Source: a virus (lineage: Duplodnaviria > Heunggongvirae > Uroviricota > Caudoviricetes). Taken from it: a DNA stretch of 34,216 bases. The translations under genes and the position numbers were made by a program. The stretch lies in IMG/VR virus record IMGVR_UViG_3300029181_000137; one strand, given 5' to 3'. Shown here one piece after another: positions 586 to 32,848 of the stretch. Position 1 is the first letter of the stretch. Every line of letters starts with the position of its first letter. The notes below the pieces were generated by a model that had not been told where the DNA came from, did no database searches, and saw nothing but the letters and a program-made list of their open reading frames with translations.

Positions 586-1634
586 GAAATCGTCCCCAGA
601 ACCGCCAGTTCATTTTTTGCAATGGAGATATTGTCCGCCGGGGCAAGCAACTGATGGCTGTATTCCCCGTTCGCACCGGAAATCGCCTCACTGATACGCG
701 ATACCTTCAGTTCTCCCTGAGGATAACCATCACGCAGCAGGAACGAACGCAACTCTGCGGTGATGGCAGCCCGTATTTCCGGTGTGTCCGGCGTCACGCG
801 GATATGAAAATCCACTTTATGCGCCACCGGCCTGAATACATACAAATCAGAGCCTGCCACCGGGGCCAGTGGCTCAATGTGTTGTCTTGCCGCCGTTTCC
901 GTTGATTCTTCCGGAATGGGATTAATCAGGTCACTGCTGGCAATCATCACACCGACAGTTCCCGTTCCCATCCAGTGACGGTATGTCCATGCGCGGGTAA
1001 TGCCGGGCACTTCTTTAGCCCAGACGACATAGTCCACGTCAGCCCCGCCCTGCGGCGTCCAGTAATACCGCTCAATGATGCGGGCGCGCCACGTTTCCAG
1101 CTCTTCAGTATCAAATCCGCCTGTCAGGGTGTCAGCCACACCGGAAGACGGCAGACCATTCACCGGCGTGACCAGGATTAATGCCGTACCGTCGTCAGCG
1201 TTACCGACCGCACCTGCACTTGAGCAGGCGATCGGCACGCGCAGGACACCACCGGAGCTGGTTGCATCGTCAGTTGTCGTGTACTGCACCAGGTCATCGC
1301 GCTGAATAACACTCCCGGCGGTCACCTTCAGGCCATCGCTGACACCTTCCCAGCGCATATACCCACTGGCAGCCGTGGCTCCCTTGCGCGGACACCGTTT
1401 CATCGCAGCATGTCGCGCCAGCCAGGACTCATCGCACAGGTCAGGCAGCATGTTCATTGCCAGATAATCGATGTAACCGTAAACCGTATGCAGCGCCGCC
1501 GCATACACCTTTGCCCGCACGTCTTCATCCATGCGCCGGAGCGTGTCGCTGACGTCCAGCCTGGCGAATAAATCGTTACGGAGCATACTGATATTTTCTG
1601 CCAGCGTCGGGCGCTGAAATTCACTGTCCGCCAT
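576..1634 (-). CDS. Baseplate J-like protein (Mu gp47-like)
   Basis: 352-aa ORF, size and position typical of baseplate J family, overlapping its neighbours as in an operon. Confidence 0.75.
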
Positions 1635-2049
1635 GCGTTATCGCACTCCACAGATCATCAAAAGAAATCATTACCGGTCCGTCACGACGCCAGAGAGTGA
1701 TACTGTTACCCAGTTCATTAATCCCGGTGCGGCGGATATCCAGATCAATACGGGACACCACGCCGTCATCAATCATCCATTGCAGGCATTCGCGGATATA
1801 CCCCCTTACCGTCTGCACCAGCTGATTGGTCAGTTTGCTGCGCTGAAGCAGCCACAGTCGGGAGCCGTAACGGTCATTCTGTACCGCAGGCCAGGTATCC
1901 CCCCACCATCCCATCGGGACGTCAGCATTGTCATCAGGTTCAGCCCGCCGCCAGGTGAACAGGGAAATCACCACGGCACGGGTCAGCGGATCCAGCGGTG
2001 CGCTGGCGCAGGTGCGTTTACCGTTCACCGTCAGCCACAGTTCCATCAT
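1621..2049 (-). CDS. Baseplate protein, Mu gp46-like
   Basis: 142-aa ORF between baseplate V-like and J-like genes; size and synteny match the GP46 family. Confidence 0.65.
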   Translation of the reverse strand: MMELWLTVNGKRTCASAPLDPLTRAVVISLFTWRRAEPDDNADVPMGWWGDTWPAVQNDRYGSRLWLLQRSKLTNQLVQTVRGYIRECLQWMIDDGVVSRIDLDIRRTGINELGNSITLWRRDGPVMISFDDLWSAITHGGQ

Positions 2050-2594
2050 GCCTCCATCGCTTTATCAGGTTTGTCGGTGTTACTGCCCTGACCGTTCTCT
2101 CTGTGACGATGCCCGTTATAGGCAAGCCGCATCGCTGACATGGTGGTGCCGCTGGAGTCGCACAGGTCTTTCACCTGTCCGGTCACTTCCAGGTCCATTT
2201 CAAAACGAGCCTTAGGCGCATTGCGAAACTTGATCGTTTTACCTGCACCGTCCACCACGATCCCCGCCCGGGTCAGCGTCACGGACTGCCCCTGATCGTC
2301 ATAGACAGCAACCTCACCCGTCTGCAGCCCTTTCAGGCGGTAGCGCCGGTCCGACACCGTAACAACCACCGCATGAGAACGGTCACCATCCGGAAACAAC
2401 ACCACCGCTTCCGCACCGCTGTTTGCCCTTGCGGTAAAACCGTAGGGTTCAAGATGTTCAACCCCGGCTTTGGGTTCACCGGCAATCAGGGACACATCCA
2501 CGGTCTGACATTTCGTGGCGGCACTGATGCTTTTCACCACCGCCCGCCCAATCAGGCCGAGGAGTTGTCGCTGTATGGTTTCAATCGCCTTCAT
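2046..2594 (-). CDS. Baseplate assembly protein V / spike (Mu gp45-like)
   Basis: 182-aa ORF, 4-bp overlap with downstream gene, in the conserved position between gpD-like and gp46-like genes. Confidence 0.7.
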   Translation of the reverse strand: MKAIETIQRQLLGLIGRAVVKSISAATKCQTVDVSLIAGEPKAGVEHLEPYGFTARANSGAEAVVLFPDGDRSHAVVVTVSDRRYRLKGLQTGEVAVYDDQGQSVTLTRAGIVVDGAGKTIKFRNAPKARFEMDLEVTGQVKDLCDSSGTTMSAMRLAYNGHRHRENGQGSNTDKPDKAMEA

Positions 2595-3673
2595 CAGAAC
2601 GGGTCCTCCTGTACTCTGGCTTTTTTCTTTTTCCGCGCGCCGGGGGCTTCGGGTTCAGGCAGATAAGCATCAGGTGGGCCGACACGGATTTCCGTCAGGG
2701 TGCCATTCTGGTCCTGAGTAAACGTGACTTCCGAGACAAGCAGTTCGGTATTGTCGAAACCACAGACCGGATCGAAGACAATCACCCGCTGGTTGGGCTG
2801 CCACAGCGTACCGTTACCCTGTCGCCAGCCCTGCACCACATAGGTGGTTTCATCCGTCCGCGCCGCCCGTTGTCGGGCTTCAAAGTCAGCACGCGCAATA
2901 CAGCCTGCCCCCGTAGCCTGCCCTGTCTGCCTGATATACATCGGACGGTAACGGGCAATAAATGCATCCTCTGTGCGGGCCCGCAGCGCGGTGGTGGTGG
3001 CCTCACCGAAATCATCGTCGTTTCCGGCACGCTGCCCCGCCACCTGGTAAACTGAAAACCGCTCCCGGATACTCTTCTCCGTATCACAGGAAAGGATGTT
3101 TTCCCCGAGTACCAACGCGGTATGTGCCCGCGTTGAGCCAATACCGCCAATCACCAGCCTGCCGTGCGGGTCGTCATAAGCCAGCGCCTGCTGCTGACCG
3201 AGTATTTTGTTGATCACCTCAATCACCGTTTCACCGTGATCAGGCTGGACATCAGGAATAACACCCGACGGCGCACCGCTGTTCACCACCTCAATGCCGA
3301 AAGGCGCAGCAAGCGCCTGCGCAATCTGTACCAGCGATCGTCCGTTAAACTGTGTCGGTTCGGCTGCACAGTCAATCAGGTCAGCGGTCAGACTACGTCC
3401 GGCAATACCGGTGCTGACCGAACGAGCATCGTAACGAACGGGCGTCGCCTCCACCCAGCCGGTGATCACCAGCTCATCACCAATCAGCACTTCCACTTTT
3501 GAACCGTTTTTAATGCGCGGCTGAAGCGTGGTAATACCCTCATCTCCCGGCCACTGGCGGGTGATCTCCACACTGAAATCCCGCGCCAATCGTTCAACAC
3601 CGGCACCGATGCGCACCGATGTCCAGCCATTCCACTCCCGGCCATTTACCCGTAGCGTGACGTTATCGTTCAT
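2594..3673 (-). CDS. Baseplate hub, late control D family (Mu gp44/P-like)
   Basis: 359-aa ORF downstream of the DNA circulation N-like gene; size and synteny of gpD/Mu P family. Confidence 0.7.
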   Translation of the reverse strand: MNDNVTLRVNGREWNGWTSVRIGAGVERLARDFSVEITRQWPGDEGITTLQPRIKNGSKVEVLIGDELVITGWVEATPVRYDARSVSTGIAGRSLTADLIDCAAEPTQFNGRSLVQIAQALAAPFGIEVVNSGAPSGVIPDVQPDHGETVIEVINKILGQQQALAYDDPHGRLVIGGIGSTRAHTALVLGENILSCDTEKSIRERFSVYQVAGQRAGNDDDFGEATTTALRARTEDAFIARYRPMYIRQTGQATGAGCIARADFEARQRAARTDETTYVVQGWRQGNGTLWQPNQRVIVFDPVCGFDNTELLVSEVTFTQDQNGTLTEIRVGPPDAYLPEPEAPGARKKKKARVQEDPF

Positions 3674-4998
3674 TGCACTGGCACCTTCAGAGGGATCACC
3701 GGCACAAAGCCGGGATGCGTAATGGCATTACGCCGGATAATGTCCGCGTCACGCGCCGCGTTATCAAACCAGGTCGCCGCCAGCACCAGCGCGGGTAAAA
3801 CCTCATCCGGCGTGCGCTGAATGATCCGTGCAGACTGTTTAAGGCGCGTGTTGATATCCGCATTCAGATCTGCTTTCACCCGGCGCAGCGCCAGAAACAG
3901 CGCATCACTGGTTGTACGGGACAACTCCTTATCAATTGCCGTATTCAGTGTGTAGCGAATGTCAGTCAGTTCTTCCCACGTCGGCAGGTCAACCGTGCTT
4001 TTCACCGCCGGTGCATTGTTCAGTGCCGGATGCGTGACGGAAGGCCAGCCAGTGCTCTGCGCGGGTGTTGTTGCCTGCCCCACTGCGGCATTCTGCATCA
4101 CCGCGGAAGTTGTTGGCGCAGGTAATCGGGTGACGGCATACGCCGCTTCGCTGATTGCGGTCGTACGAAGGATGCTGGCAACCACGTTACGCTGCTGCGT
4201 CGCCGTGGCGGTGGTTTTACTGTCCGTTTTCCAGACGCCGCGCGGTTGCAGATCACTGCCGAGGCTGACACCGGAAAGCGTTTTGATCATGGTGACCAGG
4301 TCGCTGGCGTTACCATAAAGGCGTTTCCCGGTACGCCACATTTTCTGCACCTGCTCAACGAAATTTTTGCCTGACGATGGCGGCGGCAGAAGTACCGAGA
4401 TATCCCCCTGCAACAGCCTGGCGGCATCCGATACGGCAGAATCCACCACTTTCATCGCATCAGAAACATACCCAAGCATTGTGCTGGCATTACCGACGAC
4501 ATCGTTCTGCACAAAATCTGCCACGCCATCGATACTGAAACTACTGAAACTGTCACTGATGCAGTCATCCAGTGCAGAACAGGATGACATCAGCGTCTGC
4601 GCCGTCGCCGCACCTGATGTGGGGTAAGAGAGTTCTCCCGCTTCGACAAACTTCAGGTCAAAGCGGACAATACGCCCTTCACTCTTCGATGTGCTGACCC
4701 GAACTTCTCCGTCAACACAGACTTTCAGTTCACCGTAAGTCGGATGGACAAGCGTGCCGGGACCGGGTTTATTCAGCGCGTCAATCAGGCGATCGCGCTG
4801 GTCAAAGCAATCATCTCCCACCACATAAGCCGTGATGGACGGGCGGAAAGTGATTTTCCCCAGGTCTTCGGTATAGGGTTTGTCGCGGTTCGGGTATTCG
4901 TGCGTTTCCACACGACGTCCAGTTCCCGCACTTTCTTCTTCAACCTTAAACGGCACACCTCGAAATGACGCATCCTGAAGCCTGTCTTTCCACGTCAT
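3670..4998 (-). CDS. DNA circulation protein N-like (Mu gp43)
   Basis: 442-aa ORF; N-terminus (WKDRLQDASFRGVPF...HEYPNRDKPYTEDLGK) matches the remembered DNA_circ_N signature; SD GGAG upstream. Confidence 0.75.
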   Translation of the reverse strand: MTWKDRLQDASFRGVPFKVEEESAGTGRRVETHEYPNRDKPYTEDLGKITFRPSITAYVVGDDCFDQRDRLIDALNKPGPGTLVHPTYGELKVCVDGEVRVSTSKSEGRIVRFDLKFVEAGELSYPTSGAATAQTLMSSCSALDDCISDSFSSFSIDGVADFVQNDVVGNASTMLGYVSDAMKVVDSAVSDAARLLQGDISVLLPPPSSGKNFVEQVQKMWRTGKRLYGNASDLVTMIKTLSGVSLGSDLQPRGVWKTDSKTTATATQQRNVVASILRTTAISEAAYAVTRLPAPTTSAVMQNAAVGQATTPAQSTGWPSVTHPALNNAPAVKSTVDLPTWEELTDIRYTLNTAIDKELSRTTSDALFLALRRVKADLNADINTRLKQSARIIQRTPDEVLPALVLAATWFDNAARDADIIRRNAITHPGFVPVIPLKVPVQ

Positions 4999-5010
4999 AT
5001 ATACTCCGAA

Positions 5011-5040
5011 AATTAAAAAGCCACCTATTAGAAGGTGGCC
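5011..5040 (-). terminator. Intrinsic terminator downstream of the tail-module moron
   Basis: Minus-strand hairpin GCCACC-TTCTAAT-AGGTGGC followed by TTTTTAATTTT, 20 bp after the moron stop codon. Confidence 0.55.
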
Positions 5041-5059
5041 TTGTAATGAATTTTATTAA

Positions 5060-5590
5060 TTAGCGAGTCAGAAACAACGAATCTTTATACTTTTGCTGTT
5101 GTTCATTTAAATACTTAGCTGTTTCATCGCTGGCAAATGGAAATATTACCGTATTTTTAGGCATGGTAATTTCTTTTTTGTCCAGCGTCAGAGTAAACAT
5201 AGGAACATACTGAGCAGAGTAACGCACCGCAGAAACGAGCTCTAGTTTAGACTCTTCAACAACACTTAAATTATCCAGGCTAACTTTCTCTTCATCTTTT
5301 TTCTTTGACGCATTTAAAGTTTTTATTACTTTATTTAATTCCTCCTGAAAATCCTCCTTAAAGTTTTCAGGATTGCCGTCGACAACAAGAATCTGTTCAC
5401 CCTGATTATCTGGAAAAATAATCTTTGCACTTATCAATTTATTTTCTTTATAAACATCACCAAGTTTTATGGCTCCTCCAGATAACTGAATAATATGTTC
5501 ATCTTTAAAGGAGATGTTGCCAGAGATTATGAGAGATGAAAAAATAGCCGCTGCTCCAAGAATTACACTTGCTGTGATATAGCCTTTCAT
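5060..5590 (-). CDS. AT-rich moron: hypothetical secreted/membrane-anchored protein
   Basis: 176-aa ORF with hydrophobic N-terminus (MKGYITASVILGAAAIFSSLIISG) and Lys/Glu-rich body; about 25-30% GC by eye versus about 55% in flanking tail genes; own promoter-like and terminator elements. Confidence 0.7.
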   Translation of the reverse strand: MKGYITASVILGAAAIFSSLIISGNISFKDEHIIQLSGGAIKLGDVYKENKLISAKIIFPDNQGEQILVVDGNPENFKEDFQEELNKVIKTLNASKKKDEEKVSLDNLSVVEESKLELVSAVRYSAQYVPMFTLTLDKKEITMPKNTVIFPFASDETAKYLNEQQQKYKDSLFLTR

Positions 5591-5625
5591 TTTTCGCCTA
5601 TTAACATTTTTCTAAATGTGCATTA

Positions 5626-5653
5626 ATTCTATCACTCTATTTATGACTTACAA
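5626..5653 (-). promoter_or_regulatory. Candidate sigma70 promoter of the tail-module moron
   Basis: Minus strand reads TTGTAA-16 nt-TAGAAT about 35 nt upstream of the moron ATG. Confidence 0.35.
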
Positions 5654-5681
5654 CCAGCAATACCTGTGAGGGGAATCCTAG

Positions 5682-7514
5682 CTACCAAAATCGGGTATAG
5701 CCAACATCGTGATTTATATCAATGCCACTGGAGCGTGTTTCCGTAACCCGCATACCTGGTGGCATATTTATAAATGATACCTTGATCTCACCATCAACTT
5801 TTGGCGCAGAAGCTTTGTTAATCATGAAGGGATTCGAGCCTGTGGCACCGGAGGCGTTGTTTGACTGAGCCAGATCCACCGCCGGATAAGGTGTGTATCC
5901 CCGCGCCGGTATTCCCGTCCCATAAGCATCATAAGCACCCGCGCCCCACTGCGCAGAGTTAATGGCATCGACCGTGTCACCAGAACTGTCGGTAAACCAC
6001 TCAATAATTGGCTTCAGCTTGTCCCACATATCCTGAAACCACTTAACAACCGGCCCCCAGTTATTGATCACCATCCCCAGCGGCGACCAGGCAAAAACTT
6101 TCTTAAGGAGTTCCCAGCCAGCCTCAAAATAAGGACCAATGGTTTCCCAGAGTTTCTTAAAATAAGGTCCGACAACATCCCAGTTAGTGATAATTAATCC
6201 CGCAGCCAGGGCTATCGCCGTCGCAATCATGCCAATCGGCGTCATCGACATGATCCTGCTGACAATGCTGATGGCACTGCCCACGCCCATCAATCCCAGT
6301 TTCAGAATCGCAAGACCGGCAGCAAGCCCGACGACGCCGCGAATAACCCGGGGATTTTCATCCGCAAACTTCGTGAATTTCTCCCCCAACTCCCCCAGCC
6401 ACTGCGTGATGTTCTTAGCGTCACCAGAAAATGCGCCGCCAATAGCCGCAAGGCCGTTGGTTGCGGTCCCCGTCATTGCCTCCCACAGGTTGGACAGCGT
6501 ACCAAGCTGTGCCTGAACACGTTTATTCAGGCTGGCCTGTTTATTCATCTTCTGCTGGATCTGATCGTAGCCATCCTTTCCTTTATCGATCAGCGCATTG
6601 ACCACCTGAAGGGTTTCGGCGTCATCACCAAATATTGCCTTAAGTACACCAGTTCGTTTAACGTCGGTCAGTTGTCGCAGCTTTGCCAGTTGCCTGAACA
6701 TGTTATCAAGACCGCCAAAACTCCCTTTGCCGTCAGTAAAATCGAGCTGTACCCCGAGTTTCTGGCGGGCCATGATTTTATTGACGTCCCTGATTTTCTT
6801 AACGCTTAATCCGGACTGGATAACTTTTCGCAGGGCGTTACCTGCCGACTCCCCGTTCATCCCCATCTGATCCATCATGACGCTGATGGGGGCAAGGCTC
6901 TGTGCAGCCTGAAGACCGTCCTTGTTCACCATCTTCAGAACAGAGCTGGTTTTAGTGAAGAAGGACAACATGTTGGTATCGTCAACGCCCAGATAAAACG
7001 CCTTCTGGATAGTGTCGAACAGCCCCATCATGTCTTCTGACGCCGTTCCGGTAGCATCCTGCATCTTTGCGGAAAACTCAGCAGCCGCTTCCGGTGTTTT
7101 TTTCAGTTGTACCGCAAGATAAGCTGTCGCTTTACCCACACCACCCAGAATGTTTTCTGCCGGGATCCCCTGACGCACCAGCATCTGCATCATGTTCTGG
7201 AAATCAGCCGTTGTACCGGGTAGCTGGTTACCCAGGCCAATAGCCAGTTTATTGATGTCCTGAAAGCTCTTTCCGACCTCGCCGTTCGCATCCATCATGG
7301 CGACTTTCAGCCCGGTGGCGGCGTTTTCCTGATCGGCATAAGATTTCAGGGAAAGCGTCAGACCCGCTGCCAGTCCGCCACCAAGCGCCAGCCCACCCTG
7401 TGACGCTTCTTCCGCCTGGCGTTTAAATCCCCGGATTTTCTTTTGCATTTTCGACAGCGCGGGAGAAAGCCTGTCGACACCGGTGATCAACGCCTTAAGC
7501 TCAAATTCAGCCAT
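5682..7514 (-). CDS. Tail tape measure protein
   Basis: 610-aa ORF, Ala/Gly/Leu-rich with hydrophobic C-terminal stretch, immediately downstream of the chaperone frameshift pair. Confidence 0.85.
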   Translation of the reverse strand: MAEFELKALITGVDRLSPALSKMQKKIRGFKRQAEEASQGGLALGGGLAAGLTLSLKSYADQENAATGLKVAMMDANGEVGKSFQDINKLAIGLGNQLPGTTADFQNMMQMLVRQGIPAENILGGVGKATAYLAVQLKKTPEAAAEFSAKMQDATGTASEDMMGLFDTIQKAFYLGVDDTNMLSFFTKTSSVLKMVNKDGLQAAQSLAPISVMMDQMGMNGESAGNALRKVIQSGLSVKKIRDVNKIMARQKLGVQLDFTDGKGSFGGLDNMFRQLAKLRQLTDVKRTGVLKAIFGDDAETLQVVNALIDKGKDGYDQIQQKMNKQASLNKRVQAQLGTLSNLWEAMTGTATNGLAAIGGAFSGDAKNITQWLGELGEKFTKFADENPRVIRGVVGLAAGLAILKLGLMGVGSAISIVSRIMSMTPIGMIATAIALAAGLIITNWDVVGPYFKKLWETIGPYFEAGWELLKKVFAWSPLGMVINNWGPVVKWFQDMWDKLKPIIEWFTDSSGDTVDAINSAQWGAGAYDAYGTGIPARGYTPYPAVDLAQSNNASGATGSNPFMINKASAPKVDGEIKVSFINMPPGMRVTETRSSGIDINHDVGYTRFW

Positions 7515-7689
7515 GTGTGCGTTTCTCCTGCTCTATCCTGTTTGCCTGACTGACCAGTAAGGGAATTTCACTGATCGGCATATTCAGCAATTCGAAAGGA
7601 TTAATGCGCCAGTAGCTGGCGCAGTCAAAGAAGCGATCAGTGAGGTATTCAGCCGTCAGGCCTGGAGGAAAAAACCAGCCACAAGCCAC
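7507..7689 (-). other. -1 frame extension of the tail chaperone (programmed frameshift product C-terminus)
   Basis: Overlapping -1 frame ORF with no ATG (GTG-initiated in the ORF track); slippery heptamer T-TTT-TTC on the minus strand at 7668..7674, just before the frame-0 stop; extension ends overlapping the tape-measure start. Confidence 0.6.
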
Positions 7690-7925
7690 GCCGCTGCATT
7701 CAGGTCTGCCGGAGACATCTGGTCGACAGAGCTTTGCGGCACTTTCGCCAGCCGCACAATGTATTTCGACACCACATGCGCCAGAAGTCTGACGGACTCA
7801 TCCTGATTCATCTGGTAGGGATACCCCAGCTCGCGGACATCCTTCCCGGTGGGTTCATCAAACTCCAGTACGGAGAGTGTCTCACCATGAGCGATAATCG
7901 GTTTCTTTAACTCAAGCTCTTTCAT
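7656..7925 (-). CDS. Tail assembly chaperone (Mu gp41-like), frame-0 product
   Basis: 89-aa ORF between tail tube and tape measure genes. Confidence 0.7.
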   Translation of the reverse strand: MKELELKKPIIAHGETLSVLEFDEPTGKDVRELGYPYQMNQDESVRLLAHVVSKYIVRLAKVPQSSVDQMSPADLNAAAWLVAGFFLQA

Positions 7926-8281
7926 TACTGGTAATCCCCTTCTTCACCGTGGAACTCAAGATCAACCGTGCCTTCTTCGGCATTATGGTTCGCTTCGCCG
8001 TGCAGCCAGGCGGACGACAATACATAGACCTGACCGTTCGCCAGCTCGGCAGTGATGGTCATCTCATCAGACGAGGTGATTTTGCTCACCGGAAAATTCT
8101 TCGGCACCTTGAAGGTCCCTTTGACATAAGGCGCACGGTGAGTTTCCTTGCGGTCCACTGAACCGTCCAGGCCGATGATGTCATCATTGACCGTCCTGTT
8201 CATGGGCACCTCAATGCCGCCGGTCAGCGATAGCTGCTGACCGTCAATTTTGAAATAACAGGTTCCCCCGATACGGGCCAT
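7925..8281 (-). CDS. Tail tube protein (Mu M/gp40-like)
   Basis: 118-aa ORF directly downstream of the sheath gene, stop/start overlap. Confidence 0.75.
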   Translation of the reverse strand: MARIGGTCYFKIDGQQLSLTGGIEVPMNRTVNDDIIGLDGSVDRKETHRAPYVKGTFKVPKNFPVSKITSSDEMTITAELANGQVYVLSSAWLHGEANHNAEEGTVDLEFHGEEGDYQ

Positions 8282-26803: not shown

Positions 26804-27478
26804 ATGAAAACAATCCATGACATCCGGCGGTCTAACGCCAGAAAACTGAGAGATGGTGTTGGCGGGAATTCTTCCTTTGCCACTATGATTGATCGCGAGC
26901 CAACCCAGACCAGCAGGTTTATGGGAGATGGTGCTACTAAAAATATCGGTGACAGCATGGCACGACACATCGAAAAATGTTTCGACCTGCCTGTCGGATG
27001 GCTCGATCAAGAACACCAGACAACGAACATCACAAAAAAACCTGATGTTTCAATCACTAATAAACAAATCACATTAGTCCCTGTCATATCATGGGTACAG
27101 GCCGGAGCATGGAAAGAAGTTGGATATTCTGAGGTTGATTTGAGCACAGCAGAAACGTATCCCTGCCCTGTCCCCTGTGGGGAAATGACTTATATCTTGC
27201 GGGTGATAGGTGATTCAATGATTGATGAGTACCGCCCGGGAGACATGATTTTTGTCGATCCTGAAGTACCTGCCTGCCACGGTGACGACGTTATTGCATT
27301 GATGCACGATACAGGTGAAACCACCTTCAAAAGGTTGATAGAAGATGGGACACAGCGTTATCTCAAAGCGTTAAACCCAAACTGGCCTGAGCCTTACATT
27401 AAGATCAACGGTAATTGCTCTATAATTGGTACAGTGATTTTCTCAGGAAAACCAAGAAGATACAAAATCAAAGCCTAA
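26804..27478 (+). CDS. cI: CI-type repressor (HTH plus S24 LexA-like autopeptidase domain)
   Basis: 224 aa; C-terminal domain with GDSM motif (VIGDSMIDEYRPGDMIFVD) and downstream Lys (TFKRL); divergent from cro. Confidence 0.9.
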   Translation: MKTIHDIRRSNARKLRDGVGGNSSFATMIDREPTQTSRFMGDGATKNIGDSMARHIEKCFDLPVGWLDQEHQTTNITKKPDVSITNKQITLVPVISWVQAGAWKEVGYSEVDLSTAETYPCPVPCGEMTYILRVIGDSMIDEYRPGDMIFVDPEVPACHGDDVIALMHDTGETTFKRLIEDGTQRYLKALNPNWPEPYIKINGNCSIIGTVIFSGKPRRYKIKA

Positions 27479-27491
27479 TCAATGTTTATGA

Positions 27492-27513
27492 ACCTGCTTC
27501 GGCAGGTTTTTTT
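27492..27513 (+). terminator. Intrinsic terminator after cI
   Basis: ACCTGC-TTCG-GCAGGT followed by TTTTTTT, 14 nt after the cI stop. Confidence 0.65.
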
Positions 27514-27517
27514 ATAC

Positions 27518-27549
27518 TTGACAATGTACCTTTGAGATACATAATGTAC
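27518..27549 (+). promoter_or_regulatory. Candidate pL with OL-like operator half-sites
   Basis: TTGACA (27518..27523)-16 nt-CATAAT; two ATGTACC half-sites (27523..27529, 27543..27549) sharing the TGTACC motif of the OR palindromes. Confidence 0.5.
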
Positions 27550-27636
27550 CCAAGCGAAACAACAAACAGGCAGGTCGTCCACGAAGTAGCCGCCTGGGGC
27601 ATATGAAGTCCAGGATGATTCGTTAGCAACAAAAAA

Positions 27637-27667
27637 GCGCCCTACAGGACGCTTAGCTCTTTAACAA
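27637..27667 (+). promoter_or_regulatory. nut-like element: hairpin plus boxA-like GCTCTTTAACAA
   Basis: GCTCTTTAACAA at 27656..27667 matches the remembered boxA core of rrn operons; preceded by imperfect hairpin GCGCCC-TACA-GGACGC. Confidence 0.4.
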
Positions 27668-27712
27668 TCTGGTCCCCTTCAACAAGTAACTGATAACTTG
27701 AGGAGGTGTGAA

Positions 27713-27919
27713 ATGCACAAAACAGAACCCAAAATCGTCGCGCCTGGCTACACAGATGAGGAAATTTATGAGTGGATGACAAAGAAGCTGGCAGCTATAA
27801 ACCAGCTTCGTGAAGTGCTGTCTTATCGACAGGAAACAATAGACTCCTTAAAAAAACTGGATCAGGAAATCACGGTTTTATCACAGGATGTTACTTTAGA
27901 TATTGTGCAGACAAATTAG
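27713..27919 (+). CDS. First pL-operon ORF, small acidic hypothetical protein
   Basis: 68-aa product from MHKTEPK with strong SD GAGGAGGTG; no Arg-rich motif, so not a recognisable N. Confidence 0.5.
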   Translation: MHKTEPKIVAPGYTDEEIYEWMTKKLAAINQLREVLSYRQETIDSLKKLDQEITVLSQDVTLDIVQTN

Positions 27920-28325
27920 GATCCCATTCATTTTCGTCAAAATCATCAAAGTGATGAATTTGTGATCTCCAGTCTCGATAATCTAAAAATTTCTGGGCGG
28001 TTACGCTTATTTTATCAAGCGTGAGTTCATCCTGAATTGAAAGAAGAAGTTCATCAAATTTCATCTCATTAATCTGCTTTGGCATCCAGTGATGCTTCAT
28101 CAGAATAAGGTGAACCAGAGCCTTTTTCCCATTCAACTGATTATAGGGAGTGCCGAATTTCTTCCGGTGCTCATGTAAGACAAGGTCCAGAAGAGTAAGT
28201 AATGTTGCCCTTGATTCAACTTTACTTATTTCGACTGATGACACTACCCCACTGATTTCAATGCCCCGATACTTTCCAACATTTTCACAGTGGGATTTGT
28301 ACAACGTGTAGATATTACCGGACAT
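27891..28325 (-). CDS. AT-rich hypothetical protein in the immunity region
   Basis: 144-aa ORF, about 35% GC by eye, good SD (AAAGGAAAAG), convergent with and overlapping the 3' end of the pL-proximal ORF. Confidence 0.6.
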   Translation of the reverse strand: MSGNIYTLYKSHCENVGKYRGIEISGVVSSVEISKVESRATLLTLLDLVLHEHRKKFGTPYNQLNGKKALVHLILMKHHWMPKQINEMKFDELLLSIQDELTLDKISVTAQKFLDYRDWRSQIHHFDDFDENEWDPNLSAQYLK

Positions 28326-28340
28326 TTCTTTTCCTTTTGC

Positions 28341-28392
28341 GTTGTTGGGGATAACCAGATTAACCGAATCCTTGTTGTTGGGGAATAACCAG
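28341..28392. repeat. Two direct repeats upstream of the 144-aa gene
   Basis: GTTGTTGGGGATAACCAG (28341..28358) and GTTGTTGGGGAATAACCAG (28374..28392), 15-bp spacer. Confidence 0.5.
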
Positions 28393-28655
28393 GTCCACCT
28401 CGCCTGATGTGGCTAAAAGCAGGCACATAACAGCTAAGTATTTTCAACCAGAGAGAATTCTTAGCGTTGTGGTGAATGCGGCTCAGCGCACGCGGGTTAA
28501 GGTTGAGGCTGACAGTCGACCTTCTGTAGATACCCACCCGCCTGGTGTGCAACCTTCGCCAGGCACCGGGAGGCACCCGGCACCACAACTTTATGCTGTG
28601 TGTAGTCCTGGCGGTACCAGCTTGTACTCTTGCTTCCGGCTGGTACCGTCCTTTT

Positions 28656-28745
28656 TACAAAACAGAGAAGAGCATCACCGGACGACGGGCTCATAACCCA
28701 ATCCATCCGGGCGGCTGCCACCGCAGGTGTTCTTCTCTGTTTTGT
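28656..28745 (+). ncRNA. Long structured RNA element in the early-left leader (function unknown)
   Basis: 18-bp stem ACAAAACAGAGAAGAGCA (28657..28674) with TGTTCTTCTCTGTTTTGT (28728..28745); the single non-Watson-Crick position is a G-U pair only on the + strand transcript; 53-nt GC-rich interior with sub-hairpins. Confidence 0.4.
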
Positions 28746-28793
28746 GGAGAAACTAATCGGCCTTGCAGGGTCGATATGATGAGGAGCAGCAAA

Positions 28794-29156
28794 ATGGCTA
28801 GCGAACGCAGTACTGATGTGCAGGCATTTATCGGGGAGCTGGACGGCGGCGTATTTGAAACCAAAATCGGCGCAGTTCTCAGTGAAGTCGCTTCCGGTGT
28901 GATGAACACGAAAACCAAAGGTAAGGTCTCACTCAACCTGGAAATCGAACCATTTGATGAGAACCGTGTGAAAATCAAACACAAACTCTCATATGTTCGC
29001 CCGACTAACCGCGGGAAAATTTCCGAAGAAGACACCACCGAAACGCCGATGTATGTCAATCGCGGTGGTCGCCTGACTATTCTGCAGGAAGACCAGGGAC
29101 AGTTACTGACTCTTGCCGGTGAACCTGACGGAAAACTCCGCGCAGCAGGTCGTTAA
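28794..29156 (+). CDS. yfdP: YfdP-like prophage protein
   Basis: 120-aa product from MASERSTDVQ with GAGGAG SD; first of five consecutive genes whose lengths (120/274/178/120/101 aa) match the CPS-53 yfdPQRST set as I remember it. Confidence 0.6.
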   Translation: MASERSTDVQAFIGELDGGVFETKIGAVLSEVASGVMNTKTKGKVSLNLEIEPFDENRVKIKHKLSYVRPTNRGKISEEDTTETPMYVNRGGRLTILQEDQGQLLTLAGEPDGKLRAAGR

Positions 29157-29221
29157 TATCGTTTTTAATTAACTGATTATTTATCTCATCACTGAATATC
29201 TTTATATAGTGAGGACTTATT

Positions 29222-30046
29222 ATGTCTCAGAACTTAGACGCAACCGCAATTAATCAAATCCATGCCCTTATTTCTGCTCAGGGTGTTAATGAAATTATCA
29301 GTAAGATTGGTGCCGATGCTGTGGCATTGCCTGAGAATTTCCGCATTCATGATCTGGAAAAATTTAATTTAAATCGCTTCCGTTTCCGTGGTGCGCTTTC
29401 CACTGCCAGCATCGATGACTTTACCCGTTATTCTAAAGATCTTGCAGATGAAGGCACCCGCTGCTTTATCGATGCTGATAATATGCGTGCCGTCAGTGTG
29501 CTTAACCTGGGTACTATTGATGAACCAGGTCACGCAGATAACACCGCCACACTCAAACTGAAAAAGACAGCACCGTTCTCTGCTCTGTTGTCTGTTAACG
29601 GCGAGCGTAACTCCCAGAAGTCACTGGCAGAATGGATTGAAGACTGGGCCGACTATCTTGTGGGCTTTGATGCTAATGGTGACGCTATTCAGGCAACAAA
29701 AGCGGCTGCGGCTGTCCGTAAAATCACGATTGAAGCAAACCAGACCGCTGATTTTGAAGATAATGACTTCAGCGGCAAACGCTCCCTGATGGAGTCTGTC
29801 GAAGCGAAGACCAAAGACATTATGCCAGTGGCATTTGAATTTAAATGCGTTCCGTTTGAAGGTCTGAAAGAACGTCCGTTTAAATTACGCCTCAGTATTA
29901 TCACTGGCGATCGTCCTGTACTGGTTCTGCGCATTATTCAGCTGGAGGCGGTGCAGGAAGAAATGGCTAACGAATTTCGTGATCTGCTTGTTGAGAAATT
30001 CAAGGACAGCAAAGTAGAAACCTTTATTGGTACTTTCACCGCCTGA
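29222..30046 (+). CDS. yfdQ: YfdQ-like protein (DUF2303-like)
   Basis: 274-aa ORF following yfdP-like gene; size and synteny. Confidence 0.65.
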
Positions 30047-30058
30047 TTTCATTACTGC

Positions 30059-30082
30059 AAATGCCCCTGCGGGGGCATTTAT
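30059..30082 (+). terminator. Hairpin between yfdQ-like and yfdR-like genes
   Basis: AAATGCCCC-TGC-GGGGCATTT perfect 9-bp stem followed by ATGG; weak U-tract. Confidence 0.35.
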
Positions 30083-30173
30083 GGAAACGTAATTTACTCA
30101 ATAATCGCCGGATGGTGAGGGATTCTTTTTACCAGAATTCAGCGCGGTGCAGCGCATATACGTGGAGAACAAA

Positions 30174-30710
30174 ATGTCATTTATTAAAACTTTTTCCGGG
30201 AAGCATTTTTATTATGACAGGATAAATAAAGACGACATCGATATTAACGATATCGCGGTTTCCCTTTCAAATATCTGTCGCTTTGCCGGTCATCTTTCGC
30301 ACTTCTACAGCGTCGCCCAACATGCGGTTCTTTGCAGCCAGCTGGTGCCGCAGGAATTTGCTTTTGAAGCGTTAATGCATGATGCAACAGAAGCGTATTG
30401 CCAGGACATTCCCGCACCACTGAAACGCCTTCTTCCTGACTATAAACAAATGGAAGAAAAAATAGACGCCGTAATCCGTGAGAAATACGGGTTACCCCCG
30501 GTTATGAGTACGCCCGTGAAATATGCCGATCTCATCATGCTGGCAACCGAACGCCGCGATCTCGGGCTTGATGATGGCTCTTTCTGGCCTGTACTGGAAG
30601 GTATCCCGGCAACAGAGATGTTCAACGTGATTCCACTGGCACCGGGCCATGCCTACGGGATGTTTATGGAACGCTTTAACGAGTTATCGGAGTTACGCAA
30701 ATGCGCATGA
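30174..30710 (+). CDS. yfdR: HD-domain 5'-deoxynucleotidase, YfdR-like
   Basis: 178-aa product from MSFIKTF with GGAGAA SD; HD motif context (CRFAGHLSHFYSVAQHAVLCS...LMHDATEAY). Confidence 0.75.
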   Translation: MSFIKTFSGKHFYYDRINKDDIDINDIAVSLSNICRFAGHLSHFYSVAQHAVLCSQLVPQEFAFEALMHDATEAYCQDIPAPLKRLLPDYKQMEEKIDAVIREKYGLPPVMSTPVKYADLIMLATERRDLGLDDGSFWPVLEGIPATEMFNVIPLAPGHAYGMFMERFNELSELRKCA

Positions 30711-31063
30711 ATGTTTTCGAAATGGAAGGGTTTCTTCGTGGGAGATGTGTACCGCGAGATCTGAAAGTAAATGAAACAGATGCTGAATACCTGGTGCGTA
30801 AATTCGATGCGCTTGAAGCTAAATGTGCAGCACAGGAAAACAAAGTAATACCAGTGTCAACTGAACTGCCACCAGCAAATGAAAGTGTTTTGTTATTCGA
30901 TGCTAACGGAGAAGGCTGGCTAATTGGCTGGCGTTCTCTCTGGTACACCTGGGGACAAAAAGAAACCGGAGAATGGCAGTGGACATTTCAGGTCGGGGAC
31001 CTTGAAAACGTCAATATCACTCACTGGGCAGTAATGCCAAAAGCACCGGAGGCTGGAGCATAA
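30701..31063 (+). CDS. yfdS: YfdS-like protein
   Basis: 120-aa ORF overlapping the yfdR-like stop; size and synteny. Confidence 0.55.
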   Translation: MRMNVFEMEGFLRGRCVPRDLKVNETDAEYLVRKFDALEAKCAAQENKVIPVSTELPPANESVLLFDANGEGWLIGWRSLWYTWGQKETGEWQWTFQVGDLENVNITHWAVMPKAPEAGA

Positions 31064-31368
31064 TGACCACTTTTACCGACAAAGAACTGATTAAAGAAAT
31101 TAAAGAGCGTATCAGCAGCCTTGACGTGCGAGACGATATTGAGCGCCGTGCTTATGAAATCGCACTCCTATCTCTGGAAGTAGAACCAGATGAACGCGAA
31201 GCTTATGAATTATTCATGGAAAAGCGTTTCGGTGACTTAGTAGATCGTCGGAGAGCAAAAAACGGCGATAACGAATACATGGCATGGGATATGACTCTCG
31301 GTTGGATCGTCTGGCAGCAACGAGCTGGTATCCATTTTTCAACAATGTCACAGCAAGAGGTGAAATAA
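31063..31368 (+). CDS. yfdT: YfdT-like protein
   Basis: 101-aa ORF, ATGA-type overlap with yfdS-like; size and synteny. Confidence 0.55.
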   Translation: MTTFTDKELIKEIKERISSLDVRDDIERRAYEIALLSLEVEPDEREAYELFMEKRFGDLVDRRRAKNGDNEYMAWDMTLGWIVWQQRAGIHFSTMSQQEVK

Positions 31369-31718
31369 TGGAGCCATACAGCCTCACACTCGATGAGGCC
31401 TGTCATTTTCTCAAGATATCCAGACCGACTGCCATTAACTGGATACGCACAGGGCGTCTTCAGGCAACACGCAAAGATCCCACTAAGAATAAATCTCCTT
31501 ACCTCACAACACGACAAGCCTGCATTGCGGCGCTTCAGTCTCCGCTGCATACTGTCCAGGTGAGCGCGGGTGATGGCATAACAGAGGAAAGAAAATGTCA
31601 CTCTTCCGCAGAGGTGAAATATGGTACGCCAGTTTCACATTGCCGAACGGTAAAAGATTTAAACAGTCTCTTGGAACAAAGGACAAAAGGCAGGCGACAG
31701 AACTCCATGACAAGCTAA
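31368..31718 (+). CDS. xis: Excisionase (HTH_17/Xis family)
   Basis: 116-aa product from [33 protein letters not shown] with TAATG coupling and AAGAGG SD; overlaps the int start by about 120 nt. Confidence 0.65.
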
Positions 31719-32758
31719 AGGCTGAAGCATGGCGGGTCAGCAAACTTGGTGAAATACCTGATATAACGTTCGAGGAAGCGTGTGTCAGGTGGCTTGAAGA
31801 GAAAGCACATAAAAAATCACTGGACGATGACAAAAGCCGGATCGGATTCTGGCTTCAACATTTCGCAGGAATGCAACTAAGAGACATTACTGAATCAAAA
31901 ATTTATTCAGCAATGCAGAAAATGACGAACCGGCGTCATGAGGAAAACTGGAAACTCAGGGCAGAAGCATGCAGAAAAAAAGGGAAACCTGTTCCAGAAT
32001 ACACGCCAAAACCAGCGTCCGTTGCAACGAAGGCTACGCATCTTTCATTTATAAAGGCCCTACTAAGAGCCGCAGAGCGTGAATGGAAAATGCTGGATAA
32101 GGCACCAATTATTAAAGTGCCTCAACCAAAGAATAAACGGATCCGCTGGCTGGAGCCCCATGAAGCACAAAGGCTGATTGATGAATGTCCGGAGCCATTA
32201 AAGTCTGTTGTTGAATTTGCACTGGCAACAGGCTTAAGACGCTCGAACATCATCAACCTTGAATGGCAACAAATAGATATGCAGCGCCGGGTGGCATGGA
32301 TAAACCCGGAAGAGAGTAAATCAAACCGCGCAATTGGCGTTGCGCTGAATGATACTGCATGTCGCGTATTGAAAAAACAAATCGGGAATCATCACCGTTG
32401 GGTATTTGTGTACAAGGAAAGCTGTACCAAACCAGACGGAACGAAAGCGCCAACAGTAAGGAAGATGCGGTATGACGCAAACACAGCCTGGAAAGCGGCG
32501 CTGAGACGGGCTGGTATTGATGATTTCAGATTTCACGACTTGAGACACACCTGGGCAAGTTGGCTGGTTCAAGCCGGAGTCCCGTTGTCAGTTTTACAGG
32601 AAATGGGAGGCTGGGAGTCTATCGAAATGGTTCGTCGATATGCTCACCTTGCACCTAATCACCTTACCGAACACGCACGGCAAATAGACTCGATCCTGAA
32701 CCCATCGGTCCCAAATTTGTCCCAGTCAAAAAATAAGGAAGGTACTAATGATGTGTAA
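31595..32758 (+). CDS. int: Tyrosine integrase, P22-type
   Basis: 387 aa; C-terminal catalytic region with HDLRHTWAS and RRYAHLA (catalytic Tyr); ends 15 bp from the tRNA-Thr 3' end. Confidence 0.95.
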
Positions 32759-32772
32759 CTTATTGATTTTAA

Positions 32773-32848
32773 TGGTGCCGATAATAGGAGTCGAACCTAC
32801 GACCTTCGCATTACGAATGCGCTGCTCTACCAACTGAGCTATATCGGC
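32773..32848 (-). tRNA. thrW: tRNA-Thr (anticodon CGT), integration target
   Basis: Minus strand reads GCCGATATAGCTCAGTTGGTAGAGCAGCGCATTCGTAATGCGAAGGTCGTAGGTTCGACTCCTATTATCGGCACCA; anticodon loop ATTCGTAAT; encoded CCA end. Confidence 0.9.

What the first reader, a model, noticed from the sequence alone, without database searches (positions are those of the whole stretch)
27518..27919. pL region has a boxA-like sequence but the first gene is not an N-like antiterminator
Downstream of the candidate pL there is an exact match to the boxA core I remember from rrn operons (GCTCTTTAACAA), preceded by a hairpin. The first ORF (68 aa, strong SD) is acidic with no Arg-rich motif, and no N-like protein was found anywhere in the operon, although terminator-like hairpins (for example 30059..30082) lie within it. 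This suggests a non-N antitermination mechanism or an unrecognised small antiterminator.
Basis: partly seen in the sequence, partly recalled or inferred. Interest (0 to 1): 0.45.

Follow-up and report, generated by a model that had tools for sequence, protein, structure and literature searches.

The report
N-less prophage pL leader with boxA
An E. coli prophage that lacks the lambda N protein carries, just after its early-left promoter, an exact and widely conserved copy of the ribosomal-RNA "boxA" signal fused to the terminator of an opposing gene, plus an undescribed conserved folded RNA, so it probably borrows host Nus factors rather than a phage protein to keep early transcription going.

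Summary
The window is an SfIV/e14/CPS-53-type lambdoid prophage of E. coli integrated at tRNA-Thr. A repressor-controlled pL (27518-27545) is followed by a hairpin (27635-27654), an exact 13-nt rrn boxA (27656-27668) and a real 68-aa acidic gene. HMM and Arg-rich-motif scans find no N homologue in either early operon.

The hairpin is mainly the intrinsic terminator of a convergent minus-strand gene (ORF144). It has a G.U pair and a U6 tract on the minus strand, but a C.A mismatch and a poor U tract in pL sense. The hairpin stem and boxA are nucleotide-identical across Enterobacterales, with at least ten different downstream cargoes, a freely varying loop and no boxB. ORF68 and boxA each occur without the other, so ORF68 is not boxA's partner.

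An undescribed, covariation-supported 68-nt RNA (27559-27626) sits at the 5' end of pL transcripts in about 1200 of 5426 E. coli genomes, including K-12 e14. It is not a put homologue.

Best reading, inferred only: a stand-alone, N-independent NusB/NusE loading site, as in rrn operons and CRISPR arrays. It would protect pL transcription from Rho across about 870 untranslated nucleotides. A strong intrinsic terminator at 28610-28655 remains unexplained.

The parts
26804..27478 (+). cI-type (YmfK/CohE-like, LexA-family) repressor gene
   Evidence: Peptidase_S24 hit at 1.5e-26 and phrog_4 transcriptional repressor. Annotated as cI in SfIV and SfV, and as ymfK in RefSeq.
27490..27516 (+). intrinsic terminator of the cI transcript (8-bp stem plus T7)
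   Evidence: Terminator scan. Annotated as a terminator in SfV and Ayreon.
27518..27545 (+). pL promoter (TTGACA-16-CATAAT) overlapping operator-like site 27524-27543
   Evidence: Matches 11 of 12 consensus positions. The operator repeat is shared with the cro-cI intergenic region.
27559..27626 (+). conserved 68-nt structured leader RNA at the 5' end of the pL transcript: closing helix P1, conserved arm GGCAGG...CCGCC, and covarying stem-loop SLb
   Evidence: Model R1 scores 85.4 bits, E 2e-25, and this is the only copy in the window. Of 14 modelled pairs, 8 show compensatory changes, 90.5% of cells are paired, and 0 of 500 shuffles reach this. Not in Rfam. Present in E. coli K-12 e14 upstream of ymfJ and in 1200 of 5426 E. 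coli genomes.
27629..27654 (-). intrinsic terminator for leftward (minus-strand) transcripts of the convergent moron: hairpin 27635-27654 plus U-run
   Evidence: Terminator scan. The minus-strand RNA gives -11.5/-12.1 kcal/mol with a G.U pair; the pL-sense RNA gives -7.5 kcal/mol with a C.A mismatch. In PhiR29, L010, L066, L074 and L103 it lies 20-40 nt beyond the stop codon of a convergent gene.
27656..27668 (+). rrn-consensus boxA, GCUCUUUAACAAU
   Evidence: Exact and unique in the window, with 0 of 100 shuffles matching. Identical to the rrnB leader boxA. The 12-nt core is identical in 21 of 25 distinct family contexts, while the loop and flanks vary. The 3'-arm-plus-boxA 20-mer is exact in 16 species representatives across Enterobacterales.
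27713..27919 (+). ORF68, a small acidic protein of unknown function (SD GAGGAGG at 27700-27706)
   Evidence: phrog_1744 over its full length, 6e-35. Homologues in L125 (35%) and L151 (51%). No N-like features.
27891..28325 (-). ORF144, ECs1072-family phage-associated protein; a convergent moron gene overlapping the ORF68 3' end by 29 nt
   Evidence: NF033230 at 1.7e-46 and phrog_5286 at 1.5e-90. Annotated as SfIV_36.
28436..28659 (+). STnc100-like structured non-coding RNA, ending in a strong pL-sense intrinsic terminator (stem 28610-28647 plus UCCUUUUU)
   Evidence: RF02076 scores 41.5 bits (gathering score 47), E 9e-8. Terminal hairpin -26.3 kcal/mol, z -4.99.
28794..32758 (+). rest of the pL operon: yfdP, yfdQ (DUF2303), yfdR (HD phosphohydrolase), DUF551 protein, an unknown ORF, xis and int; attachment at tRNA-Thr 32773-32848
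   Evidence: Pfam and PHROGs; SfIV and RefSeq annotation; tRNA.
30059..30082 (+). GC-rich hairpin between yfdQ and yfdR without a good U tract; a weak or doubtful terminator
   Evidence: Sequence; -14.8/-16.5 kcal/mol. The equivalent site is annotated as a terminator in phage Ayreon.

Best explanation
The boxA at 27656-27668 is a functional, N-independent loading site for the host NusB/NusE(S10) complex on pL transcripts.

Proposed mechanism (inferred). After repressor cleavage, RNA polymerase starts at pL and transcribes the 68-nt leader RNA. It then passes the hairpin, which in pL sense is weakened by a C.A mismatch and lacks a proper U tract. Next it extrudes boxA. NusB/NusE, with NusA, NusG and SuhB, assemble an rrn-type termination-resistant complex. 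This complex carries the polymerase through ORF68 and then through about 870 nt that cannot be translated in pL sense: the antisense of the convergent gene ORF144 plus the STnc100-like RNA. There Rho would otherwise terminate an untranslated antisense RNA before yfdP-yfdQ-yfdR-xis-int.

The hairpin has a separate job. It terminates leftward transcripts of the convergent moron so that they do not run antisense into pL and cI.

Shown here: the anatomy, the exact rrn consensus, the strand asymmetry, conservation across diverged relatives, the absence of boxB and N, and the association with convergent genes.

Inferred: Nus-factor binding, the Rho sensitivity of the stretch, and the antitermination effect.
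For: 1. The 13-nt match to the rrnB boxA is exact, unique in the window and never seen in shuffles.

2. It is on the pL-sense strand about 105 nt after a repressor-controlled promoter.

3. Purifying selection acts on the nucleotides. In L066, L103 and L125 the YfdP/Q/R proteins are only 57-67% identical, yet the hairpin stem and GCTCTTTAACAAT are identical while the 3-4-nt loop differs (TACA, CGTA, CGAA, ATC, CGAT, GGTA and others). The 20-mer is exact in Escherichia, Shigella, Atlantibacter, Buttiauxella, Kosakonia, Raoultella, Citrobacter, Mangrovibacter, Sodalis and Symbiopectobacterium. It is present in 804 of 5426 E. coli genomes, with several different right-hand junctions just after boxA.

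4. boxA survives without the hairpin in L012, L053 and L077, so boxA itself is a conserved unit.

5. No boxB-like hairpin is conserved 3' of boxA. No N-family hit was found in 20 early-operon ORFs, and no ORF of at least 40 aa in the window has an N-terminal Arg-rich motif.

6. Of 25 distinct boxA-bearing contexts, 22 have a convergent ORF of at least 137 aa ending 40-270 nt after the leader. Among 42 boxA-less contexts about 7 have a convergent ORF of at least 120 aa, and in just over half a + strand ORF starts within about 45 nt of the leader.

7. The pL-sense RNA is untranslated from 27920 to 28793 and has a C>G bubble at 28200-28320, with C/G up to 2.6.

8. Precedents exist for stand-alone boxA protecting untranslated RNA from Rho: rrn operons and CRISPR arrays (PMC7665894; review PMC12360218). 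In IMG/VR phage contigs the same 14-mer follows a consensus promoter ahead of long tRNA arrays (L071, L055).
Against: There is no experimental evidence for Nus binding or Rho sensitivity here.

boxA is not obligatory. SfV, Ayreon, cdtI and K-12 e14 lack it, and some boxA-less relatives also have convergent genes. The same ORF68/ORF144 cassette occurs without it in L151.

rrn-type complexes are known to work poorly on intrinsic terminators (established knowledge), yet a strong one lies at 28610-28655.

The hairpin stem is conserved in sequence rather than by covariation. A plain terminator plus boxA does not explain this.

The counts are not phylogenetically independent.

boxA-NusB/E can also promote Rho termination, as at suhB and hisG (PMC12360218).
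Confidence: 0.5

Rival explanations
1. The real non-N antiterminator is the conserved 68-nt leader RNA (27559-27626). It would act in cis on RNA polymerase in the manner of HK022/HK639 put RNA, and boxA would be only an accessory. This reading is compatible with the best explanation.
For: It sits at the very 5' end of pL transcripts behind many different promoters and repressors. Covariation supports the structure. It is self-contained, with no conserved expression platform downstream. Of 59 distinct family members among 62 candidate sequences, 58 are in operons without an N/nut system. It could account for readthrough of the intrinsic terminator at 28610-28655, which boxA alone would not. A 2025 paper speculates that N-less lambdoids carrying the yfdP/yfdQ gene cluster use put-like RNA (PMC12315714).
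Against: The covariance model does not hit HK022 or HK639 put sites. The fold differs: a closed three-way junction rather than two tandem stems. The shared CAGGAUGA is an apical loop in put but a junction here. There is no second copy in the pR operon. In L176 it coexists with a classical boxA-boxB-N system.
Confidence: 0.25
2. The module is only the moron's terminator plus a conserved recombination joint. On this reading the boxA match has no Nus-related function.
For: The module sits at mosaic junctions, with homology breaking at 27669-27680 in different genomes and at 27624 in SfV. The hairpin is clearly a minus-strand terminator. boxA is dispensable in many relatives.
Against: An exact 13-mer identical to the rrn consensus, in the right orientation, is very unlikely by chance. 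boxA is conserved while the adjacent loop and flanks vary. boxA persists where the hairpin is absent (L012, L053, L077).
Confidence: 0.15
3. A suhB-type attenuator. NusB/NusE bound at boxA, about 45 nt upstream of the ORF68 start, would repress ORF68 translation and so promote Rho termination, damping pL-operon expression.
For: The spacing to the ORF68 start codon is kept in L125. The mechanism is documented for suhB (PMC12360218).
Against: Most boxA-bearing contexts have no + strand ORF after boxA and run straight into a convergent gene.
Confidence: 0.1
4. boxA works with an unrecognised phage-encoded N analogue, either ORF68 or a protein encoded elsewhere.
For: Small early proteins of unknown function are present: ORF68 and others in the pL operon.
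Against: ORF68 and boxA occur independently of each other. The hairpin loop is unconstrained, and no boxB is conserved 3' of boxA. No Arg-rich N-terminus was found anywhere. No structural or family similarity to antiterminators was found.
Confidence: 0.06
5. boxA is a decaying relic of an ancestral nutL, left behind after N was replaced by morons.
For: L176 shows the same leader RNA followed by boxA, boxB and an N-like gene.
Against: This boxA is closer to the consensus than that of L176. It lies at a different distance from the leader and is perfectly maintained across genera. Relics decay.
Confidence: 0.04

Closest known systems
rrn operon antitermination (boxB-boxA-boxC leader; NusA/B/E/G, S4, SuhB)
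   Same: The 13-nt boxA is identical. The order is the same, a hairpin immediately 5' of boxA (rrnB: GCCGC..GCGGC-AC-UGCUCUUUAACAAU). No phage protein is involved. A long untranslated RNA lies downstream.
   Different: The element lies in a phage early-left mRNA leader. There is no boxC (UGUGUGGG). The hairpin is the terminator of a convergent gene, not a boxB. A translated ORF follows in this window.
[quoted passage not shown]
   Same: A stand-alone boxA downstream of a promoter, placed ahead of a non-coding Rho-sensitive transcript, in horizontally acquired DNA.
   Different: Here the untranslated stretch is the antisense of a moron plus an sRNA-like element inside a protein-coding operon. 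Function has not been tested.
Lambda/P22/phi21 N-nut system
   Same: A lambdoid prophage with boxA in the pL leader, and Q for late genes.
   Different: There is no boxB 3' of boxA and no N protein. boxA has the full rrn consensus rather than the weaker lambda CGCUCUUA.
HK022/HK639 put RNA
   Same: An N-less lambdoid with a conserved structured RNA directly after the pL start (27559-27626).
   Different: There is no detectable sequence or structure homology. The fold is a three-way junction. There is a single copy. It coexists with N in L176.
suhB 5'UTR boxA (Nus-factor autoregulation)
   Same: boxA lies a few tens of nucleotides upstream of a start codon.
   Different: It is not tied to a particular ORF in relatives, and the expected effect is the opposite.

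Membership tests
Lambda-type N/nut antitermination | boxA on the early transcript | tested here: met
   Exact GCUCUUUAACAAU at 27656-27668.
Lambda-type N/nut antitermination | boxB hairpin a few nt 3' of boxA with a conserved GNRA-like pentaloop | tested here: not met
   No hairpin is conserved 3' of boxA across 25 contexts. The only hairpin is 5' of boxA and its loop varies freely. A true boxB is seen only in L176.
Lambda-type N/nut antitermination | N protein with an N-terminal arginine-rich motif encoded in the operon | tested here: not met
   No N family among 20 early ORFs in Pfam or PHROGs. No N-terminal Arg-rich motif in 235 ORFs of at least 40 aa.
Stand-alone (rrn/CRISPR-type) boxA antitermination | Consensus boxA in sense orientation downstream of a promoter | tested here: met
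   Identical to rrnB boxA. pL matches 11 of 12 consensus positions and has operators.
Stand-alone (rrn/CRISPR-type) boxA antitermination | Conservation of boxA in diverged relatives | tested here: met
Stand-alone (rrn/CRISPR-type) boxA antitermination | Long untranslated, Rho-susceptible RNA downstream | tested here: inconclusive
   There are 874 nt without a credible + strand ORF (27920-28793) and a C>G bubble. However, ORF68 is translated first, and Rho dependence cannot be computed.
Stand-alone (rrn/CRISPR-type) boxA antitermination | NusB/NusE binding and Nus-dependent readthrough | not testable with these tools
   Needs gel-shift, ChIP or reporter assays.
put-type antiterminator RNA (HK022, HK639) | Sequence/structure homology to putL or putR (two tandem stem-loops) | tested here: not met
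   Model R1 finds nothing in HK022 (L005) or HK639 (L240). The fold is P1 plus two hairpins.
put-type antiterminator RNA (HK022, HK639) | Location immediately downstream of pL in a phage without N | tested here: met
   Position 27559-27626, about 10 nt after the predicted start.
put-type antiterminator RNA (HK022, HK639) | Binding to the RNA polymerase beta' zinc-binding domain and terminator readthrough | not testable with these tools
   Experimental only.
Intrinsic (Rho-independent) terminator | GC-rich hairpin followed by a U run, downstream of a gene on that strand | tested here: met
   Minus strand: 8-bp stem plus U6, -12 kcal/mol, downstream of ORF144 and, in relatives, 20-40 nt after other convergent genes.

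The most novel reading that the evidence does not exclude
N-less e14/SfIV/CPS-53-type lambdoid prophages run their early-left operon with a processivity system that needs no phage protein and has two cis-acting RNA parts. The first is a new class of 68-nt three-way-junction leader RNA that modifies RNA polymerase, put-like in function but unrelated in fold. The second is an rrn-consensus boxA that recruits the host Nus complex exactly where transcription enters the antisense of a convergent moron. On this reading the sequence-invariant hairpin-boxA unit is a composite site: a one-way terminator plus a Nus loading site.
Probability: 0.2. Interest if true: 0.8.

Novelty: new variant of a known kind. 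Interest (0 to 1): 0.55.

Why it matters
Lambda N and HK022 put are the two textbook answers to how lambdoid phages get early transcription past terminators. A large class of E. coli and Shigella prophages has neither. This class includes the serotype-converting phages SfIV, SfV and SfII, K-12 e14 and CPS-53 relatives, and the literature offers only speculation about it (PMC12315714).

A host-factor-only boxA in pL would be a third answer. It would extend the rrn/CRISPR logic (protect untranslated RNA from Rho) to phage operons interrupted by convergent morons. It would also explain how phages tolerate cargo genes inserted head-on into essential operons.

The conserved leader RNA is present in E. 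coli K-12, so it can be tested directly with standard genetics.

Tried and rejected
- Rfam, at gathering score and at E up to 10, gave nothing for the leader or boxA region. The only near-hit is STnc100 further downstream.
- put homology was rejected. A shared CGAAC..GGC and CAGGAUGA first suggested it. After I numbered putL against the cryo-EM paper (PMC9378689), the shared motif turned out to lie in non-equivalent structural positions. Model R1 does not hit HK022 or HK639.
- No second (pR-operon) copy of the leader RNA or of boxA was found. The only near-boxA on the pR strand (26688) lies inside the cro coding sequence.
- ORF68 as an antiterminator was rejected. It has no family, structure or defence-system similarity, and it is uncoupled from boxA in relatives.
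- The hairpin as a boxB was rejected because its loop is variable.
- King et al. 2011 (J Bacteriol; PMC3187212) could not be read. I used the HK639 GenBank annotation of its putL-like RNA instead.
- Literature searches for STnc100, ECs1072 and ymfJ/e14 antitermination gave nothing on this leader.
- Stem-loop SLa of the leader RNA could not be settled. Both GGC/GCC and GGCAGG/CCGCC pairings are nearly invariant, so covariation cannot choose between them.

Full report
**What the window is.** The region is 97% identical to Shigella phage SfIV and shares modules with SfV, PhiR29, Kati, Ayreon and cdtI. It is 100% identical to a prophage of E. coli L725 and is integrated at tRNA-Thr(CGU), 32773-32848.

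The layout is lambdoid:
- The repressor gene cI (YmfK/CohE type) lies at 26804-27478 (+).
- The pR operon runs on the minus strand: cro, a cII-like gene (ymfL), ymfM, an O-like gene, RusA, a KilA-N gene and a Q-like gene (21253-21612).
- The pL operon runs on the + strand: ORF68, then yfdP, yfdQ (DUF2303), yfdR (HD), a DUF551 gene, an unknown ORF, xis and int.

**Checking the observation.** The promoter TTGACA-16-CATAAT (27518-27545) matches 11 of 12 consensus positions. It overlaps a 20-nt operator-like repeat also present twice between cro and cI, so it is a repressor-controlled pL placed right after the cI terminator. GCTCTTTAACAAT at 27656-27668 is the only copy in the window. No shuffle produces it, and it is identical to the boxA of the E. 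coli rrnB leader. With one mismatch allowed the 12-mer would not be significant.

ORF68 (27713-27919) has a strong SD, is acidic with two Arg, belongs to phrog_1744, and has homologues at 35% and 51% identity in the same position in L125 and L151. It is a real gene and is not N-like. None of 20 early ORFs hits an N family. No ORF of at least 40 aa has an N-terminal Arg-rich motif.

**The hairpin.** AAGCGCCCTACAGGACGCTT (27635-27654) reads as a canonical intrinsic terminator on the minus strand: an 8-bp stem including a G.U pair, then U6, at -11.5 to -12.1 kcal/mol. In pL sense the same position is a C.A mismatch, the energy is -7.5 kcal/mol, and the following 'U tract' is UUAGCUCUUU, which is boxA itself.

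In PhiR29, L010, L066, L074, L103, L246 and L257 the hairpin lies 20-40 nt beyond the stop codon of various convergent genes. In the window the convergent gene is ORF144 (ECs1072 family, 27891-28325 on the minus strand), with ORF68 lying between.

The hairpin is therefore a one-way terminator. It stops moron transcripts from running antisense into pL and cI, and it lets pL transcripts pass. Its loop is unconstrained (TACA, CGTA, CGAA, ATC, CGAT, GGTA, TATA, TAAA and others). That argues against a boxB-type protein site.

- The hairpin-plus-boxA block is in 804 of 5426 complete E. coli genomes. Homology breaks at several different points just after boxA.
- In IMG/VR contigs whose YfdP/Q/R proteins are only 57-67% identical to the window's, the stem and the 13-mer are nucleotide-identical.
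- An exact 20-mer (3' arm plus boxA) is found in species representatives of Escherichia, Shigella, Atlantibacter, Buttiauxella, Kosakonia, Raoultella, Citrobacter, Mangrovibacter, Sodalis and Symbiopectobacterium. These carry several unrelated upstream leaders and downstream cargoes.
- Across 25 distinct contexts the boxA core is almost invariant while neighbouring positions vary.
- boxA persists where the hairpin is missing or half-deleted (L012, L053, L077).
- Relatives without the module also exist: SfV, Ayreon, cdtI, K-12 e14 and L151. It is an accessory, not a universal part.

**Partner proteins.** boxA occurs with at least ten different cargoes that lack ORF68. The ORF68/ORF144 cassette occurs without boxA in L151. 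ORF68 shows no similarity to any antiterminator. The 'small unrecognised antiterminator' idea is therefore not supported.

**What boxA is associated with.** Of 25 distinct boxA contexts, 22 have a long convergent ORF ending 40-270 nt after the leader. In just over half of the 42 boxA-less contexts a + strand ORF starts within about 45 nt of the leader, and about 7 have a convergent ORF of at least 120 aa (these counts are not phylogenetically independent).

In the window, pL-sense RNA has no credible ORF from 27920 to 28793. That is 874 nt: the antisense of ORF144, then an STnc100-like RNA. It contains a C>G bubble at 28200-28320. Untranslated antisense RNA is the classic Rho substrate. Stand-alone boxA protects rRNA and CRISPR transcripts from Rho (PMC7665894, PMC12360218). 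In IMG/VR phage contigs the same boxA 14-mer follows consensus promoters ahead of tRNA arrays of at least 20 and at least 10 genes (L071, L055). T7-like early regions upstream of an Ocr-like gene carry three copies (L014). Phages do use boxA without N.

**Best explanation.** boxA is an N-independent NusB/NusE loading site. It would make pL transcription Rho-resistant across the convergent moron and the non-coding stretch. It is physically fused to the moron's one-way terminator. Confidence is 0.5, and all the functional steps are inferred.

**What this does not explain.**
- A strong pL-sense intrinsic terminator ends the STnc100-like RNA (28610-28655; 13-bp stem, -26 kcal/mol, z = -5). By established knowledge, rrn-type complexes read intrinsic terminators poorly.
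- The hairpin stem is conserved in sequence rather than by compensatory change.
- A semi-conserved CUGGAUAUCC follows boxA in many relatives.

**A second element inside the finding's coordinates.** Positions 27559-27626 are a conserved 68-nt RNA at the very 5' end of pL transcripts. It sits behind many different promoters and repressors.
- The alignment of 39 distinct sequences supports a closing helix P1 (GCGAA/UUCGC, covarying with ACGAA/UUCGU).
- It also supports a stem-loop SLb with many compensatory variants: CCUGG/CCAGG, CCGGU/ACCGG, CCCGG/CCGGG, CCCGA/UCGGG, CCCCA/UGGGG and CCAGC/GCUGG.
- Overall, 8 of 14 pairs show double changes and 0 of 500 shuffles reach the observed values.
- In L068, P1 appears by eye to be replaced by GUCAUC/GAUGAC. 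That row is out of register in the alignment, so this is not counted.

The RNA is absent from Rfam. It is found in 1200 of 5426 E. coli genomes and in K-12 e14 between ymfK/pL and ymfJ. It is single-copy in the window. It does not match HK022 or HK639 put sites.

Its position and self-contained nature suggest a put-like cis-acting role. That would account for intrinsic-terminator readthrough. However, L176 combines it with a classical boxA-boxB-N system, so I give that role only 0.25.

**Novelty.** boxA-dependent, N-independent antitermination is known for rrn operons and CRISPR arrays. I did not find it described for a lambdoid pL operon, nor fused to a convergent terminator, in the literature searched. 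I rate it a new variant of a known kind. The leader RNA appears undescribed.

Noticed in passing
window 27559-27626 (+); also L241 6111-6179 (-) = E. coli K-12 e14, ymfJ 5' UTR: An undescribed conserved 68-nt structured RNA at the 5' end of pL transcripts. P1 and SLb are supported by covariation. It is present in 1200 of 5426 E. coli genomes, is not in Rfam, and is not a put homologue.
   Followed up: yes
window 28436-28659 (+): An STnc100-like RNA (RF02076, 41.5 bits, below the gathering score of 47) inside the pL operon upstream of yfdP. It ends in a strong pL-sense intrinsic terminator (13-bp stem, -26 kcal/mol, UCCUUUUU). PGAP calls this stretch a frameshifted pseudogene, and SfIV annotates it as an N-terminal extension of yfdP.
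   Followed up: partly
window 27635-27654: A strand-asymmetric terminator. The conserved internal position is a G.U pair in the minus-strand RNA and a C.A mismatch in the pL-sense RNA. The stem is conserved in sequence across genera, while the loop is free.
   Followed up: yes
L071 7969-7982 (-) with tRNAs 7955..1314; L055 3612-3625 (+) with tRNAs 3820..5876: IMG/VR phage contigs in which a consensus sigma70 promoter plus AGCTCTTTAACAAT directly precedes a long tRNA array. This is stand-alone boxA ahead of untranslated phage RNA.
   Followed up: partly
L014 3764-3775, 3976-3987, 4521-4532 (-); L110 likewise: A T7-like early region (the first ORF downstream is Ocr-like) with three exact rrn boxA copies within about 770 nt. 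One follows a TTGACA-17-TACATT promoter. Each is followed by UUUGGAU or a similar sequence, as in the prophage module.
   Followed up: no
L176 ~775-990 (IMG/VR 2518285522_000006): The same leader RNA is followed by CGCTCTTTAACAG, a boxB-like hairpin (GCACUGAAAAGUGC) and an ORF starting MKCYAYNNAAKRRRDSRQALTEAY (Arg-rich motif). This is a classical nutL/N system downstream of the leader RNA.
   Followed up: partly
L033 ~1270-1440; L098 ~3100-3280: A promoter, then GGTGGGAGATC, then boxA, then a structured RNA starting CACCGGGAGG that resembles the STnc100/PasD core. This suggests boxA also precedes this sRNA-like family in other phages.
   Followed up: no
relatives: e.g. L003 5269-5280, L231, L190, L248, L253, L255, L256: A semi-conserved CTGGATATCC(A/C), part of a 10-bp palindrome TGGATATCCA, follows boxA immediately in many contexts with different cargo. 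The window has CTGGTCCCC instead. No explanation.
   Followed up: no
L012 2490-2525 (E. coli strain 1500): A natural deletion between the 8-nt repeat CAGGACGC of the leader RNA and of the hairpin 3' arm. It removes most of the leader and the hairpin 5' arm but keeps boxA and ORF68. The leader's AGGACGC could in principle pair with the hairpin 5' arm as an anti-terminator.
   Followed up: partly
window 27713-28325: ORF68 (+) and ORF144 (-, ECs1072 family) are a convergent pair overlapping by 29 nt. The pair is conserved at 35-51% and 36-39% identity in L125 and L151. Function is unknown, and there is no PADLOC hit.
   Followed up: partly
window 18871-21260 (+): Two + strand ORFs lie next to the Q-like gene (which is on the minus strand), roughly where SfIV carries an IS1-associated moron. 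One is a 388-aa NA37/YejK-like nucleoid-associated protein (PF04245, 2e-50). The other is a 408-aa protein with no Pfam hit.
   Followed up: no
L246 (assembly labelled Chryseobacterium sp. 18061): An enterobacterial-type leader RNA plus hairpin-boxA module in a Bacteroidota-labelled assembly. This is probably contamination or mislabelling.
   Followed up: no
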